Assembly: GCA_021162085.1 (NCBI GenBank)
Contig: JAGGZI010000014.1
Coordinates: 1 to 44,281 of the forward strand
Length of the DNA: 44,281 bases
From: Candidatus Aenigmatarchaeota archaeon
GTDB taxonomy: Archaea > Aenigmatarchaeota > Aenigmatarchaeia > PWEA01 > JAGHBM01
Direction of reading: 5' to 3'
Both the position numbers and the translations under genes were made by a program. A model generated the notes under the pieces. That model searched no databases, was not told where the DNA came from, and worked only from the letters and a program-made list of their open reading frames with translations. Below, in pieces: positions 7,890-42,529 of the stretch; position 1 is the stretch's first letter, and each line of letters starts with the position of its first letter.

Positions 7890-8228
7890 CTAAATAATGC
7901 TAATTGAAAAAATTGTTATAAAGATTATTAAGAATATTAGTATTTCTTTTCTGAACTCCTTTTTGCCTCTGATTAAATCATATGTATAAACTATAAGACA
8001 AGATATTATCTGCCAATAAACCACAAGAACCAGGAGATAAAGTATCACACCAAAAAATGCTCCTATTTGCATATAACTCACCAAATGAATTAGAAAAAAC
8101 ACCTCCATTGTTCTACCGTAAATCATACCCGTAACAGAAAAAAGCAATATTGCTGTAAAAACAATCCCCTTTCTCCAATCAGGTCTTATAAAATCTTTAA
8201 CAAATTTCCAGTCCATATTTAATTTCAT
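7890..8228 (-). CDS. Small hypothetical membrane protein
   Basis: Hydrophobic ORF (FIRPDWRK then TM helices). The track start at 8291 lies inside tRNA-Met, so a start at 8228 or 8216 is more likely. Confidence 0.65.
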   Translation of the reverse strand: MKLNMDWKFVKDFIRPDWRKGIVFTAILLFSVTGMIYGRTMEVFFLIHLVSYMQIGAFFGVILYLLVLVVYWQIISCLIVYTYDLIRGKKEFRKEILIFLIIFITIFSISII

Positions 8229-8267
8229 TCTTCTTCGAATTATTAAACTTAATTTCTTAAATATTCT

Positions 8268-8470
8268 TGGTGCCTGGGGTGGGTCAACCATTTCCCCAGA
8301 AAACGCTTTGCGTCTTCAAGTTTTGGGAAGTACAGAGACCTTTTTTGAAAAAGGGATCTGTTTTCGAACCCACGACCTCTAGATTTCTCACCATATCATA
8401 ATCCTCTCAGACTCATCACTCATAACTTTTGTTATGAGTCTAGCGCTCTAACCAACTGAGCTACCCAGGC
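8268..8470 (-). tRNA. tRNA-Met(CAT), elongator type, 2 introns (37/38: 8385-8432; T-loop ~59/60: 8285-8362)
   Basis: Spliced GCCTGGGTAGCTCAGTTGGTTAGAGCGCTAGACTCATA/ATCTAGAGGTCGTGGGTTCGAA/ACCCACCCCAGGCACCA; BHB helix CUCA/UGAG at the anticodon intron. Confidence 0.88.
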
Positions 8471-8533
8471 ATCTGAGATTCTAATTAGAGTTTCTTTTCA
8501 TACAACACTTTTCTTTGTGAAAGAAAAGGTTGT

Positions 8534-8796
8534 TGGTGGACCCGGGGAGATAAGGGAAACTTGAAAAGTTTCCAAGTTCTTTCCCTTGAGGCTTTCTTTT
8601 GAAGAAAGGCTCATTTGAACTCCCGACCTCTACGTAGCCCTTTTCCGCATACGCACAGAAGCGTTAACGGAAAATTTATCAGCGTAGCGCTCTAATTACC
8701 CACACTTTTCTTTTTCTCACAAACTTGACTGAAGTTTCTTTTCCCACAGTCTTTTCTTTGTGAAAGAAAAGCTGTTCCAAGCTGAGCTACGGGTCC
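8534..8796 (-). tRNA. tRNA-Ile(GAT), 3 introns (D-loop: 8696-8776; 37/38: 8636-8676; 59/60: 8551-8613)
   Basis: Spliced GGACCCGTAGCTCAGCTTGG/TTAGAGCGCTACGCTGATA/ACGTAGAGGTCGGGAGTTCAAA/TCTCCCCGGGTCCACCA forms a complete cloverleaf. Confidence 0.88.
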
Positions 8797-8949
8797 ATTG
8801 TAAATTAATTTTTATGCAATCTATAAAAAAGTTTCCCTTCCATTCAAGGCAATGTATACTCAAGACCTGAGAAAGAAATAAGGATAAAAATCGATGCCTT
8901 ACTACACACCGACATTTAAAAACAAAAAATTTTGGTGGACTTGTCGGGA

Positions 8950-9100
8950 CTCTCTCGAACCTGCAGGGGGCAAGCCCCCTTCAGTTTTACGGTATTCCTG
9001 ATATCTTCCCTTCCTTTTAAAATTGGCAAACTTTCAGTTTGCCCAAAATTGTTTCTTTGGGAAATACAAAAACCTTTCTTTCAAAAGAAAGGGATTTGTC
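8950..9100 (-). repeat. T-loop intron of tRNA-Ala, near-identical to the tRNA-Arg T-loop intron (42244-42397)
   Basis: About 100 consecutive identical nt from ttcagttttacggtattcc to aaaacctttcttt. Confidence 0.95.
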
Positions 9101-9133
9101 TTTGAACCCGAGACCTCCGCCGCTCTCAGACCA

Positions 9134-9287
9134 TTCACCAAGCCAGTTTCCGTTGACGTCTTGAGATTTTATCTCAAGTATTTGGAACATTGAGTTCCAA
9201 AACTTTACGCCGAGTAAAGGGTCATCCAAGTTTTCTGACTTCACCAAGCCAGTTTCCGTTGACGCTTTACGCCGAGTAAAGGGTCAT
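9134..9287. repeat. 48-bp direct repeat inside the tRNA-Ala anticodon intron (9240-9287 intact; 9134-9225 interrupted by a 44-bp insert at 9159-9202)
   Basis: ttcaccaagccagtttccgttgacg|ctttacgccgagtaaagggtcat is present twice. Confidence 0.95.
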
Positions 9288-9393
9288 GCGAAGGCGGCGC
9301 TCTTCCAACTGAGCTACAAGCCCATAATTAATTTTTCCTATCAATAATAGTTTTCTTTCGTACAACTCTTTCTTTTTCTAAAAGAAAGGTTGT

Positions 9394-9662
9394 TGGTGGG
9401 CCCGCCGAGATCTCCACGATGACGTACACTTCGTGCACGTCAAGCTATCTTTGAATTCCCGACACCCTTTCTTTTTTTCACAGTCTTTATCAAAGTTTTC
9501 TTTGACCGTAGACGACTTTCTTTTGTGAAAAGAAAGGAGTCTCTCGGGTCGCCAGCACCCCAAGCTGAAATGCTAGACCACTCCAGGGGACACCTACGGT
9601 TTCCCCTTAGGGTAACCTCTTCCCTTTCTAGAGCGCTAAGGGCTTAGCTACACCACGGGCCC
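9394..9662 (-). tRNA. tRNA-Pro(GGG), 3 non-canonical introns (D-loop: ~9581-9646; 53/54: 9456-9542; 59/60: 9411-9449)
   Basis: Spliced GGGCCCGTGGTGTAGC/TGGTCTAGCATTTCAGCTTGGGGTGCTGGCGACCCGAG/TTCAAA/TCTCGGCGGGCCCACCA; BHB helices CCCG/CGGG and UUCA/UGGA. Confidence 0.85.
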
Positions 9663-9747
9663 ATGATTAAATTTATGATATTTTTCTAAATATATTGATA
9701 TAGAAACATTTTTAAATCAATTCGCACTATTTTTATTAGGTGAAAAA

Positions 9748-10410
9748 ATGGCAATGGGAGCTTTAACAACGATAGGAGCAAACCTTTGGTATTCGTTCCT
9801 GGACTTTCTCCCGAACCTAATAGGAGCAATAATCTTACTAATAGTGGGCTACATAGTAGGAAAAATCAGTGGAATAGTGGTCAGAGAGATTCTAATAAGA
9901 GTTGGTGTAGACAAGTATCTCCAAAAGGAAGAACATATTAAATTCAAGACAAGTACAGTGTTCGATGTGATAACAAGATGGTTCTTGTATATAGTATTCA
10001 TCAATGCAGCGATAGAAGTACTTGGTATATCATCCCTAGTGGATGTAATGCATACAATAATATACTTCATACCAGGAGTAGTTGGAGCAGCAATAATAAT
10101 AATTGCAGCATACGGAGTTGGACTGTACATAAAGGAAGAAATACTATCATCAAAAACAATATACTCTGATATAGTAGGGAAGACCATATTCTTCTTAATA
10201 GTGTATCTTGGAGTTGCAGTGGCACTACCGTTGGTTGGAATTAATCCAACTATAGTAAACGACATACTCTTAGTGATAATAGGTTCGCTTGGACTAGGAC
10301 TAGCAATAGCACTTGGACTTGGATTAAAGGATGTCATAAGGGACATGGCAAAGGATTACGCAACTGAGTTCAGGGCGAAGAGAAAGAGGATGAATAGAAG
10401 AAGGAAGTGA
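9748..10410 (+). CDS. TM_helix-repeat membrane protein (CmpX/MscS-transmembrane-like)
   Basis: FLPNLIGAIILLIVG and FIPGVVGAAIII repeats, C-terminal AIALGLGLKD. Confidence 0.8.
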   Translation: MAMGALTTIGANLWYSFLDFLPNLIGAIILLIVGYIVGKISGIVVREILIRVGVDKYLQKEEHIKFKTSTVFDVITRWFLYIVFINAAIEVLGISSLVDVMHTIIYFIPGVVGAAIIIIAAYGVGLYIKEEILSSKTIYSDIVGKTIFFLIVYLGVAVALPLVGINPTIVNDILLVIIGSLGLGLAIALGLGLKDVIRDMAKDYATEFRAKRKRMNRRRK

Positions 10411-25990: not shown

Positions 25991-26228
25991 TGGTGCGCCA
26001 GCCGGGACTTCCACCCTACGGAGGGACACCAAGGTTTCCCTCCTTATGGGTATATTCTCCCTTCCTTTTAAAATTGGCAAAAGCGAAGCTTTTGCAAGTT
26101 CTTTCCTATTGCCCTTTCTTCTGAAGAAAGGCAATTTTGAACCCGGGTCTCGAGCTGTCTCCACTCCAACTCATTTGACTGAGTAAATTGCTTGGGAAGC
26201 TCGGGTCCTACCACTAGACTACTGGCGC
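25991..26228 (-). tRNA. tRNA-Gly(CCC), 2 introns (37/38: 26157-26192; 59/60: 26008-26135)
   Basis: Spliced GCGCCAGTAGTCTAGTGGTAGGACCCGAGCTTCCCA/AGCTCGAGACCCGGGTTCAAA/TCCCGGCTGGCGCACCA; BHB helices UUCC/GGAG and UUCA/UGGA. Confidence 0.92.
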
Positions 26229-42226: not shown

Positions 42227-42529
42227 TGGTGCCCCTGCCGGGACTTTCACGAACCCGCAAGGAACCTACGGTTCCTTTCAGTTTTACGGTATTCCTGATA
42301 TCTTCCCTTCCTTTTAAAATTGGCAAACTTTCAGTTTGCCCAAAATTGTTTCTTTGGGAAATACAAAAACCTTTCTTTTGAAAGAAAGGGATTTGTCTTT
42401 GAACCCGGGTCCCAGCCTTTCTACTTTGCGCTGAGTAAAGGGCCACTTCTACAAGCCAGTTTGATGAATCTTTATGCCGAGTAAAGATTCTCCGCAGGGC
42501 TGTATCCTATCCAGCTAGACTACAGGGGC
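42227..42529 (-). tRNA. tRNA-Arg(GCG), 2 composite introns (37/38: 42419-42491; 59/60: 42244-42397)
   Basis: Spliced GCCCCTGTAGTCTAGCTGGATAGGATACAGCCCTGCGG/AGGCTGGGACCCGGGTTCAAA/TCCCGGCAGGGGCACCA; BHB helices CUGC/GUAG and UUCA/UGAA. Confidence 0.9.
42244..42397 (-). repeat. T-loop intron of tRNA-Arg, near-identical to the tRNA-Ala T-loop intron (8950-9100)
   Basis: Direct alignment; differences are confined to hairpin tips and the splice-junction end. Confidence 0.95.

What the first reader, a model, noticed from the sequence alone, without database searches (positions are those of the whole stretch)
9123..9286. Russian-doll anticodon intron in tRNA-Ala: duplicated 48-nt unit, one copy nested and itself interrupted
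The unit ttcaccaagccagtttccgttgacg-ctttacgccgagtaaagggtcat is intact at 9240-9287, next to the anticodon. It recurs at 9134-9225 inside a small tcaga...tctga stem, where a 44-nt twin-hairpin insert (9159-9202: cttgagat-ttt-atctcaag and tttggaac-attga-gttccaaa) splits it cleanly. That gives three levels of nesting. In the RNA, the first unit ends in UGAA+2 nt and the whole intron ends in UGAG+2 nt, and both can pair with anticodon-loop UUCG. Inference: a twintron-like tRNA intron.
Basis: partly seen in the sequence, partly recalled or inferred. Interest (0 to 1): 0.88.

Follow-up and report, generated by a model that had tools for sequence, protein, structure and literature searches.

The report
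Composite repeat-built intron in tRNA-Ala
An archaeal alanine tRNA gene carries a 164-base intron assembled from repeated hairpin modules that also sit in other tRNA and 16S rRNA introns of this lineage; it looks recently copied in from a valine tRNA and is most likely cut out in one step rather than layer by layer.

Summary
On the minus strand, 9323..8933 is a tRNA-Ala(CGC) gene with two introns. The 164-nt anticodon intron (9286..9123, position 37/38) holds an intact 48-nt unit and a second exact copy split by a 44-nt twin hairpin.

The twintron reading is not supported. Only the outer junctions form a bulge-helix-bulge (BHB) splice motif, and it is a perfect one. Neither the twin-hairpin ends nor any phase of the duplication does.

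The parts are repeated modules confined to one family whose relatives' records are titled Aenigmatarchaeota:
- The unit occurs in other tRNA 37/38 introns, a 16S rRNA intron, one tRNA trailer and intergenic DNA.
- The twin hairpin is a discrete 42-45-nt insertion, always just 3' of a module's inner hairpin.
- Both show compensatory base changes.

A 97-99% identical composite intron sits in tRNA-Val(CAC) of the same genome. The syntenic tRNA-Ala of a same-genus genome has an exact 164-nt gap there. Val(CAC) carries unit-type introns in three genomes, so the copy probably went from Val to Ala.

Best reading: a modular, recently acquired BHB intron removed by one pair of splicing-endonuclease (EndA) cuts. 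It is a new variant of archaeal intron transposition. No RNA data were available.

The parts
8933..9323 (-). tRNA-Ala(CGC) gene: three exons, two introns, encoded CCA
   Evidence: ARAGORN calls tRNA-Ala(cgc), 76 nt, after in-silico removal of both introns. Sequence read.
9287..9323 (-). Exon 1, tRNA positions 1-37. The 5' strand of the central helix H (U32-G35) is 9292-9289; the 5' bulge is C36, A37 and intron nt 1.
9123..9286 (-). Anticodon-loop intron, 164 nt, at 37/38, bounded by a canonical hBHBh' motif (H 4 bp, h 5 bp, h' 4 bp)
   Evidence: BHB scan. Exact 164-nt gap in the same-genus ortholog.
9240..9286 (-). Unit copy 1, intact. The repeat also includes A37 at 9287. Its GACC (9285-9282) is the 5' strand of helix h'.
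9226..9239 (-). 14-nt linker between the copies. It resembles the tail of the single-unit intron of tRNA-Arg(CCU) on C11.
9203..9225 (-). Unit copy 2, 5' half (extended hairpin), 100% identical to 9265-9287
9159..9202 (-). 44-nt twin-hairpin module, inserted between the inner hairpin and the 3' strand of the unit's outer stem
   Evidence: Covariation in 8 distinct copies. Present or absent in orthologous 16S introns.
9134..9158 (-). Unit copy 2, 3' half, 100% identical to 9240-9264
9123..9133 (-). Intron 3' tail: h' 3' strand GGUC (9132-9129), H 3' strand UGAG (9128-9125), bulge AG (9124-9123) plus C38 (9122)
9101..9122 (-). Exon 2, tRNA positions 38-59
8950..9100 (-). Second intron, 151 nt, in the T-loop (59/60). 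Relaxed motif: H 3 of 4 pairs, h 5, h' 0. It belongs to a repeated T-loop intron family.
8933..8949 (-). Exon 3, tRNA positions 60-76 including CCA

Best explanation
This is one archaeal BHB intron at position 37/38 of tRNA-Ala(CGC). Its interior is built from two kinds of lineage-specific repeat module.

Shown:
- The outer exon-intron junctions fold into a canonical helix-bulge-helix-bulge-helix motif.
- The genome encodes a single-unit splicing endonuclease (EndA) and the RNA ligase RtcB.
- The inner boundaries carry no such motif.
- The modules recur in other introns, in 16S rRNA, in one tRNA trailer and between genes.
- An almost identical composite sits in tRNA-Val(CAC).
- The same-genus ortholog of tRNA-Ala lacks the intron exactly.

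Inferred:
1. EndA makes one pair of cuts, at 9287|9286 and 9123|9122. RtcB joins A37 to C38 and probably circularises the 164-nt intron, so the inner modules leave as passengers.
2. The layering arose at the DNA level. A single-unit intron of the kind still in tRNA-Val(CAC) of relatives was duplicated head to tail with a 62-nt period. An insert-less two-unit copy survives on C48. The 44-nt twin hairpin then inserted at its usual target, just 3' of the unit's inner hairpin.
3. The finished composite was copied from tRNA-Val(CAC) into tRNA-Ala(CGC). The two anticodon loops (UUCACA and UUCGCA) pair equally well with the intron's UGAG tail.

The copying enzyme or route is unknown.
For: Outer motif: H4/h5/h'4 at 37|38. 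It is one of only 10 strict hits among 69,378 site pairs, and the one with the most flanking pairs.

The product is a normal tRNA-Ala with G3:U70.

Enzymes: one 197-aa open reading frame carries both tRNA_int_endo_N and tRNA_int_endo domains. RtcB is present.

Inner boundaries lack the motif.

The modules fold on their own. Base-pair probabilities of h (0.83-0.93) and h' (0.95-1.00) at 37 C are the same with or without the twin hairpin or the extra repeat, across 4 variants.

Same composite in tRNA-Val(CAC), G000:C16: 98.7% over 154 nt and 97% over the whole 164-nt query. The differences are one 1-nt indel, one C>T and the tail. It has its own BHB, H4/h5/h'8, 167 nt.

Same-genus genome G001:
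- The syntenic tRNA-Ala(CGC) has an exact 164-nt gap between A37 and C38, with near-identical flanks.
- Its tRNA-Val(CAC) has a single-unit 57-nt intron.

Other family members:
- G004 Val(CAC) also has a unit-type intron.
- Ala(CGC) in G006 and G007 carries unrelated 37- and 42-nt introns at 37/38.

The twin hairpin is a discrete insertion. The 16S intron at one site is 54 nt in G000 and G004 and 98 nt (54+44) in G007. In T-loop introns, C44 and C46 have it where C16, C21 and C23:26113 do not.

C48 holds two units plus the same linker, without the insert.
Against: - There are no RNA data. No listed sequencing run is RNA, so neither one-step nor stepwise removal has been observed.
- The nearest-neighbour energy model does not favour the canonical register of the central helix. 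Its pair probabilities are 0.02-0.05 at 37 C and 0.17-0.33 at 65 C. It prefers a slipped register, GAG with UUC. The BHB assignment therefore rests on the motif rule, not on the predicted fold.
- EndA here looks like the single-unit (alpha4-like) type. The T-loop intron of the same gene has only a relaxed motif, so this enzyme must accept more than strict BHBs. That weakens the step from 'no strict inner BHB' to 'no inner cut'.
- Compensatory changes in both modules show selection on structure, which a pure passenger reading does not explain.
- The Val-to-Ala direction rests on 8 family genomes of 79-92% completeness.
- No transposase, TnpB or reverse transcriptase was found that could explain DNA-level copying. 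The genome is 87.55% complete.
- The C48 copy lies at a contig end.
Confidence: 0.68

Rival explanations
1. Twintron-like stepwise splicing. The 44-nt insert, then the inner unit, are cut out first by EndA or another nuclease, and only then is the outer intron removed.
For: - The sequence really is layered.
- This genome's EndA must accept relaxed motifs, since the T-loop intron has H 3 of 4 and h' 0.
- A passage read in PMC5829648 links alpha4-type EndAs bearing an extra loop in DPANN archaea with heavily disrupted tRNA genes.
Against: - Twin-hairpin ends: at most 3 of 4 central pairs and no flanking helices within +-3 nt.
- Every phase of the duplication: at best a bare 4-bp helix with no flanking pair.
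- The outer motif is already complete with the inserts in place, and its outer helices are predicted equally well with or without them. No prior removal is needed.
- The same twin hairpin sits in a tRNA leader (G004:C9) and a tRNA trailer (C44:838-881), where no splice product needs restoring.
Confidence: 0.05
2. The modules are functional structured RNAs housed in discarded parts of stable-RNA transcripts, for example protein-binding or guide-like RNAs released as stable circles. The Ala intron is then a carrier of two such units. This can be true together with one-step excision.
For: - Twin hairpin: 128 of 128 cells paired, 7 of 16 pairs changed on both sides, 0 of 500 shuffles reach the covariation score. 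Loops vary and the single-stranded joints are conserved.
- Unit extended hairpin: 89.9% of 99 cells paired, 6 of 11 pairs changed on both sides, 0 of 500 shuffles reach the covariation score.
- The insertion site always respects the host hairpin. It lies inside the outer stem, which gives a four-way junction.
- A box C/D RNA nested in the tRNA-Trp intron is a known precedent (passage in PMC4090602).
Against: - No Rfam family matches the region at E <= 5, apart from a weak tRNA hit and a weak snoRNA hit elsewhere in the cluster.
- No canonical C box was seen by eye.
- Copies are few and patchy: G000 10 hairpin motifs, G002 0.
- The same-genus genome does without the Ala intron.
- Hairpin conservation is also expected if hairpins are needed for mobility.
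- Related sequences can exceed the shuffles without any structure, as the tool itself warns.
Confidence: 0.22
3. Assembly artefact: the duplication or the insert was created by mis-joining repeats shared with the tRNA-Val locus.
For: - The region is repeat-rich.
- Logan contigs break inside it, and no single piece spans the whole intron.
- C48 ends inside a unit.
Against: - Overlapping pieces with 0 differences tile the exon2/intron junction, the insert with both flanks, the linker with copy 1, and copy 1 into exon 1, in runs X1 and X2.
- The Val-specific variants (G>A at 9221, an extra C behind 9228) appear on a separate 349-nt piece in X3. That piece's loose ends read on into sequence matching the C16 Val locus, so the two loci are distinguishable.
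- The repeats (25 and 23 nt) are shorter than the 31-nt words of those contigs.
Confidence: 0.03

Closest known systems
Archaeal BHB tRNA introns that spread between tRNA genes ('intron transposition' in Thermoproteales: Fujishima et al. 2010, seen only as cited in PMC4090602, passage read; recurrent intron families also counted in bioRxiv 10.64898/2026.10.13.758758, abstract and passages read)
   Same: - Near-identical introns in non-homologous tRNA genes of one genome.
- The BHB motif at the junctions is kept.
- Presence or absence differs between close relatives.
- The mechanism of arrival is unknown.
   Different: - The lineage is DPANN (relatives' records titled Aenigmatarchaeota), not Thermoproteales or Asgard.
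- The intron is a composite with an internal tandem repeat and a separate inserted module.
- The same modules also occur in a 16S rRNA intron, in tRNA flanks and between genes.
Twintrons (group II/III introns within introns in Euglena plastids; group I twin-ribozyme introns).
   Same: One intervening sequence is interrupted by another.
   Different: In twintrons each layer has its own splice signals, and the inner one must leave first to restore the outer. Here the inner layers have no BHB and the outer motif is intact with them in place.
Box C/D small RNA nested in the archaeal tRNA-Trp intron (passage in PMC4090602)
   Same: A structured RNA with conserved pairing, carried inside a 37/38 tRNA intron.
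   Different: - No C/D (or any other) Rfam family matches the intron.
- The spacing is not that of a guide RNA.
- The hosts have C, U or G at position 34.
BHB introns in archaeal 16S rRNA (Thermoproteales; PMC4496867, seen in the search listing only)
   Same: A 54-nt unit-type intron with a BHB sits in the 16S gene of G000 and G004. G007 has a 98-nt one at the same site.
   Different: Here the rRNA intron and the tRNA introns share one module family. The intron is very short and holds no homing endonuclease gene.
Hairpin-based miniature mobile elements (REP and MITE-like elements, IS200/IS605 derivatives). Recalled.
   Same: A short element made of hairpins, with defined ends and a preferred target, no target duplication seen, and nested copies.
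   Different: - It is only 42-45 nt long.
- Its ends are not clear inverted repeats.
- No Y1 transposase was found, and the only TnpB-like match is below the cut-off (16.5 against 26.3 bits).
- Copies lie almost only in discarded parts of stable-RNA genes.

Membership tests
Archaeal EndA-dependent (BHB) tRNA intron | Removing it restores a canonical tRNA | tested here: met
   ARAGORN calls tRNA-Ala(cgc), 76 nt with CCA, after removal of 9286..9123 and 9100..8950. G3:U70 is read.
Archaeal EndA-dependent (BHB) tRNA intron | Two 3-nt bulges separated by a 4-bp helix at the exon-intron junctions, flanked by helices. The cut rule (after the second bulge nucleotide) is recalled, and it fits position 37/38. 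| tested here: met
   H 4 of 4, h 5, h' 4 at 37|38. It is one of 10 strict hits among 69,378 site pairs. Caveat: the energy model prefers a slipped register for H.
Archaeal EndA-dependent (BHB) tRNA intron | Splicing endonuclease and RtcB ligase encoded in the genome | tested here: met
   PF01974 97.4 bits on C51, with both EndA domains in one 197-aa open reading frame. PF01139 584 bits on C25.
Archaeal EndA-dependent (BHB) tRNA intron | Cleavage and ligation observed | not testable with these tools
   No listed run is RNA.
Twintron (intron within intron, spliced stepwise) | One intervening sequence interrupts another | tested here: met
   The 44-nt insert splits an otherwise exact copy of the unit.
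Twintron (intron within intron, spliced stepwise) | The inner element has its own splice signals | tested here: not met
   No BHB at the insert ends (+-3 nt) or at any phase of the repeat.
Twintron (intron within intron, spliced stepwise) | The outer splice structure is restored only after the inner element is removed | tested here: not met
   The outer motif is complete in the genomic sequence. Probabilities of h and h' are unchanged by deleting the inner parts.
Transposing or recently gained BHB intron | Near-identical intron in a non-homologous tRNA gene of the same genome | tested here: met
   tRNA-Val(CAC) on C16: 98.7% over 154 nt; alignment.
Transposing or recently gained BHB intron | Empty site in the ortholog of a close relative | tested here: met
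   Exact 164-nt gap in the syntenic gene of same-genus G001. Other family members carry unrelated introns there.
Box C/D small RNA hosted in an intron | C and D boxes with guide spacing; match to a curated model | tested here: not met
   No such Rfam match at E <= 5 in 8200-9800. A CUGA lies at the 3' end, but no canonical C box was seen by eye.
IS200/IS605-type or MITE-like hairpin element (for the 44-nt insert) | Cognate transposase in the genome; terminal inverted repeats or target duplication | tested here: inconclusive
   No Y1_Tnp match. The only TnpB-domain match is below the cut-off. The genome is 87.55% complete. No target duplication is seen at 8 insertion sites.

The most novel reading that the evidence does not exclude
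The unit and the twin hairpin are autonomous, structure-dependent mobile modules. They colonise only the discarded parts of stable-RNA genes (BHB introns of tRNAs and 16S rRNA, leaders, trailers) in one family of Aenigmatarchaeota. They stack and nest inside one another, and they ride composite introns from one tRNA to another whose anticodon loop pairs with the intron tail. That would be a live, datable system of BHB-intron gain: donor, recipient and empty site are all in hand. It would also be a new kind of 'intron-riding' element with its own conserved fold, possibly including the hairpin-plus-mirror-purine-tract architecture seen at 32 sites.
Probability: 0.3. Interest if true: 0.8.

Novelty: new variant of a known kind. 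Interest (0 to 1): 0.55.

Why it matters
How archaeal BHB introns arrive in tRNA genes is unsettled. A 2026 preprint on Asgard tRNA introns concludes that 'how they arrive remains open' (abstract read).

This locus offers an unusually clean natural experiment. It has a probable donor (tRNA-Val, 97-99% identical intron), a recipient (tRNA-Ala), an exactly empty orthologous site in a same-genus genome, and unrelated introns at the same site in two other family genomes.

It also shows that introns in this lineage are assembled from a small set of structured modules shared between tRNA and rRNA genes, and that those modules insert into each other. This bears on two questions: whether intron growth is selfish or functional, and why standard tRNA finders fail on such genomes. 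Here ARAGORN finds 3 tRNAs in the whole genome, and Rfam's tRNA model clears its cut-off twice.

In the full-text searches I found no paper on tRNA introns of Aenigmatarchaeota and none on nested or composite BHB introns. Supplements were not open, and subscription papers are not in that library.

Tried and rejected
- RNA evidence: no RNA holder is listed among the 8 runs found, so splicing could not be observed.
- Rfam: nothing for the modules, at gathering scores or at E <= 5.
- Donor hunt for the 14-nt linker. I tested whether it is a leftover 3' exon of another tRNA, with an anticodon stem pairing UUGGA. No such tRNA arm was found; all hits were in coding or unrelated sequence, and the linker recurs only on C48. 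The idea was dropped.
- Tandem ligation of two whole excised introns: rejected, because copy 1 ends in the linker and not in the BHB tail.
- Alternative 3' splice site after copy 1 (UGAA + 2 nt): a central helix only, with no flanking helices by my reading. The pair did not pass the filter (that output was cut). The product would not be a tRNA.
- Mobility enzymes: no Y1 transposase, no reverse transcriptase, and one sub-threshold TnpB-domain match. This is not proof of absence at 87.55% completeness.
- Viral vectors: 5 and 2 exact motif matches in viral contigs. All lie in unrelated, coding-looking context without the rest of the module.
- Metagenome scan with the unit/insert junction: 1 contig, which is the same locus as G005:C47.
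- Genome-collection scan with the 18-nt unit motif: 21 stretches, 8 archaeal and 13 bacterial. I take the bacterial ones for chance, since by my own rough estimate a few tens are expected at that pattern length.
- Energy-based folding does not reproduce the canonical BHB register. I kept the motif-based assignment and report the conflict.
- A full intron-aware census of the genome's tRNA genes was not attempted.
- The upstream gene at 9662..9385 was not resolved.
- Complex prediction, structure prediction and the large protein searches were not used, because the finding is RNA.

Full report
WHAT IS THERE

The minus strand of 9323..8933 encodes tRNA-Ala(CGC). Default ARAGORN and Rfam do not see it, because it has two introns.
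- Removing 9286..9123 (164 nt, between A37 and C38) and 9100..8950 (151 nt, T-loop 59/60) lets ARAGORN call a 76-nt tRNA-Ala(cgc) with encoded CCA.
- 53 of the 120 T-loop boundary combinations gave that call. The 76-nt one uses 9101 and 8949.
- The acceptor stem has G3:U70.

The window is contig C23 of a 790-kb, 37% G+C genome that is 87.55% complete. Its relatives' records are titled Candidatus Aenigmatarchaeota. The runs that hold the stretch are labelled hydrothermal vent metagenomes.

THE OBSERVATION

It is confirmed in every detail.
- 9134-9158 = 9240-9264 (25 nt) and 9203-9225 = 9265-9287 (23 nt), both 100% identical.
- The 44 nt between the halves (9159-9202) are two perfect 8-bp hairpins.
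- Short contigs from runs X1 and X2 tile the junctions without a difference, and the valine copy is told apart by its own variants. No one piece spans the whole intron.

IS IT A TWINTRON?

I scored every pair of positions in the precursor for the archaeal splice motif: a 4-bp helix H between two 3-nt bulges, with an outer helix h and an inner helix h'. The cut rule is recalled, and it fits position 37/38.
- The outer junctions give H 4/4, h 5, h' 4. Of 69,378 pairs, 1,870 have a full H and 10 are strict hits.
- The ends of the 44-nt insert, shifted by up to 3 nt either way, never exceed 3 of 4 H pairs and have no flanking helix.
- No phase of the repeat gives more than a bare 4-bp H with no flanking pair. 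This holds for period 106 or 62 with the insert, and for period 62 without it.
- The tcaga/tctga stem overlaps the 3' strand of H, so it competes with the outer motif.
- Deleting the insert or one repeat in silico leaves the predicted probabilities of h (0.83-0.93) and h' (0.95-1.00) unchanged.

Against my reading, the same energy model prefers a slipped register for H (0.02-0.05 at 37 C). The motif is therefore assigned by rule, not by predicted fold.

The genome has one EndA gene with both domains (197-aa open reading frame) and RtcB. The T-loop intron of the same gene has only a relaxed motif, H 3/4, h 5, h' 0. This enzyme is therefore not strict, which leaves a small door open for unconventional cuts.

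THE PARTS ARE FAMILY-WIDE MODULES

BLAST of the intron against its own genome, motif scans and searches of relatives give this picture.
- The unit's hairpin motif occurs 10 times in G000. The sites are tRNA-Ala x2, tRNA-Val(CAC) x2, tRNA-Arg(CCU), tRNA-Arg(GCG) x2 at window 42424-42486, 16S rRNA, and intergenic C48 x2.
- It occurs 2-5 times in six of the seven other genomes of family f1, and 0 times in G002.
- The whole intron finds matches in 5 of 7 other f1 genomes and in 0 of 293 other genomes sampled from the class.

In relatives the unit forms single-unit 37/38 introns of tRNA-Val(UAC), Thr(GGU), Gly(UCC) and Val(CAC). It also forms a 54-nt BHB intron at one 16S site in G000 and G004. It follows the CCA end of a tRNA in G005 and lies between genes in G003 and on C48.

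Its extended hairpin covaries: 89.9% of 99 cells paired, 6 of 11 pairs changed on both sides, and 0 of 500 shuffles reach the covariation score.

THE TWIN HAIRPIN IS A SEPARATE ELEMENT

At least 10 copies exist in 4 of the 8 family genomes. The pattern gave 23 matches, and 13 of them are unrelated sequence. Its ends are the same everywhere. It always sits just 3' of a module's inner hairpin, inside the outer stem.
- In the unit it lies between GUAAAG and CGUC.
- In T-loop introns it lies inside an AUUG...CAAU stem.
- In a trailer it lies inside an AAAG...CUUU stem.

Orthologous or paralogous sites with and without it differ by just the element. The 16S intron is 54 nt against 98 nt. T-loop introns on C16, C21 and C23:26113 lack it, and those on C44 and C46 have it.

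In 8 distinct copies all 128 cells pair, 7 of 16 pairs change on both sides, and 0 of 500 shuffles reach the score. The loops vary freely.

Nesting is common in this family. In G007 and G003 a second type of unit sits in the loop of a first-type hairpin. In G005 an intact unit is followed by a unit that carries the twin hairpin at the same site as here.

HISTORY

tRNA-Val(CAC) on C16 carries the same composite. It is 98.7% identical over 154 nt and 97% over the whole 164-nt query. The two introns differ by a 1-nt indel in the linker, one C>T in copy 2, and the tail that forms h'. It has its own BHB, H4/h5/h'8. Both loops, UUCGCA and UUCACA, pair with the tail UGAG.

In same-genus G001:
- The syntenic tRNA-Ala(CGC) has an exact 164-nt gap, with almost identical flanks and the same T-loop intron.
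- Its tRNA-Val(CAC) has a single, diverged unit of 57 nt.

G004 Val(CAC) also has a unit-type intron. Ala(CGC) of G006 and G007 carries unrelated 37- and 42-nt introns at 37/38. Another population in the same runs has a roughly 27-nt one.

So the site turns over. The unit is old in Val(CAC) and new in Ala(CGC), and the composite was most likely copied from Val to Ala after it had formed.

C48 keeps two units and the linker without the insert, preceded by 6 nt identical to the Ala loop. This fits duplication first and insertion second, and it fits copying at the DNA level. But C48 lies at a contig end.

I found no transposase, reverse transcriptase or viral copy that would explain the movement.

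VERDICT

The layered sequence is real, but the layers are not nested introns. This is one canonical BHB intron, most likely removed by a single pair of EndA cuts. Its interior is a tandem pair of a family-specific structured module, one copy carrying a second, separately mobile twin-hairpin module. The whole was recently acquired by tRNA-Ala.

It is a new variant of the known phenomenon of intron spread between archaeal tRNA genes (passages in PMC4090602; preprint 10.64898/2026.10.13.758758). It is useful because donor, recipient and empty site are all visible.

Whether the modules are selfish or serve a function is open. Their compensatory changes argue for constraint on structure in either case.

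Noticed in passing
Whole genome G000; window 8300-9700: Standard tools find almost no tRNA genes. ARAGORN with introns allowed finds 3 in 790 kb, and Rfam's tRNA model gives 13 partial matches with only 2 over its cut-off. The window region 8300-9700 is a cluster of tRNA genes, each broken by several insertions. One is a gene at 9662..9385 that I did not resolve.
   Followed up: partly
About 40 sites genome-wide, e.g. window 9073-9092, 9368-9388, 9516-9536, 8751-8771, 26113-26131, 42370-42389: Nearly every tRNA intron or trailer starts with a pyrimidine-arm/purine-arm hairpin. After 6-14 nt (one at 20) comes a purine tract that is the mirror image, not the complement, of the purine arm. This holds for 32 of 84 hairpin-strand instances at <=1 mismatch. 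The tract tracks its own arm (0.28 mismatches) better than other arms (1.35). The direct-copy control gives 6 of 84. The geometry would fit an intramolecular purine-motif triple helix or a mirror-symmetric protein site. It is unexplained. The finding's unit looks like a diverged member of this architecture.
   Followed up: partly
Window 42228-42527 (minus strand): A second tRNA in the window, Arg(GCG). It has a 37/38 intron made of one unit of a second type plus a partial unit, and a T-loop intron 89% identical to that of tRNA-Ala.
   Followed up: partly
G000:C4:9760-10060 (16S rRNA); L021 (G007); L058 (G004): The 16S rRNA gene carries short BHB introns built from the same modules. At one site G000 and G004 have 54 nt and G007 has 98 nt, the difference being the twin hairpin. 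G000 seems to have a second module-type insertion about 100 nt downstream.
   Followed up: partly
G000:C48:25806-25902 (minus strand, contig end): An intergenic copy of two units plus the linker, without the twin hairpin. It is preceded by 6 nt identical to the tRNA-Ala anticodon loop and lies upstream of a protein gene. It is either a fossil of DNA-level copying or a product of the contig end.
   Followed up: no
G000:C40:10703-10718 and G000:C46:23457-23472 (minus strand): Short unit-like modules lie about 13 nt upstream of the 5' end of two tRNA genes, so they sit in leaders as well as introns. Part of the module can pair with positions 4-9 of the tRNA that follows (my reading).
   Followed up: no
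L059 (G007:C1, about 330.7 kb) and L015 (G003:C43): A second-type unit sits inside the loop of a first-type unit's hairpin, at the loop's 3' side, the same relative place as 37/38 in an anticodon loop. No BHB was seen at those inner ends by eye.
   Followed up: partly
Window 9101-9127 and 9286-9317, runs X2-X4: Another population in the same samples has a near-identical tRNA-Ala(CGC) with a different, roughly 27-nt intron at 37/38. The pieces join across 9127/9286 with 21 other letters between.
   Followed up: no
Window 9293-9297 with 9117-9121, and 9292: Relative to same-genus G001, the tRNA-Ala anticodon arm of G000 has one compensated stem pair (U-A to C-G) and C32 to U32. The resulting arm equals that of G004 tRNA-Val(CAC) except for the middle anticodon base. 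This may be point change, or a longer conversion tract that came with the intron.
   Followed up: no
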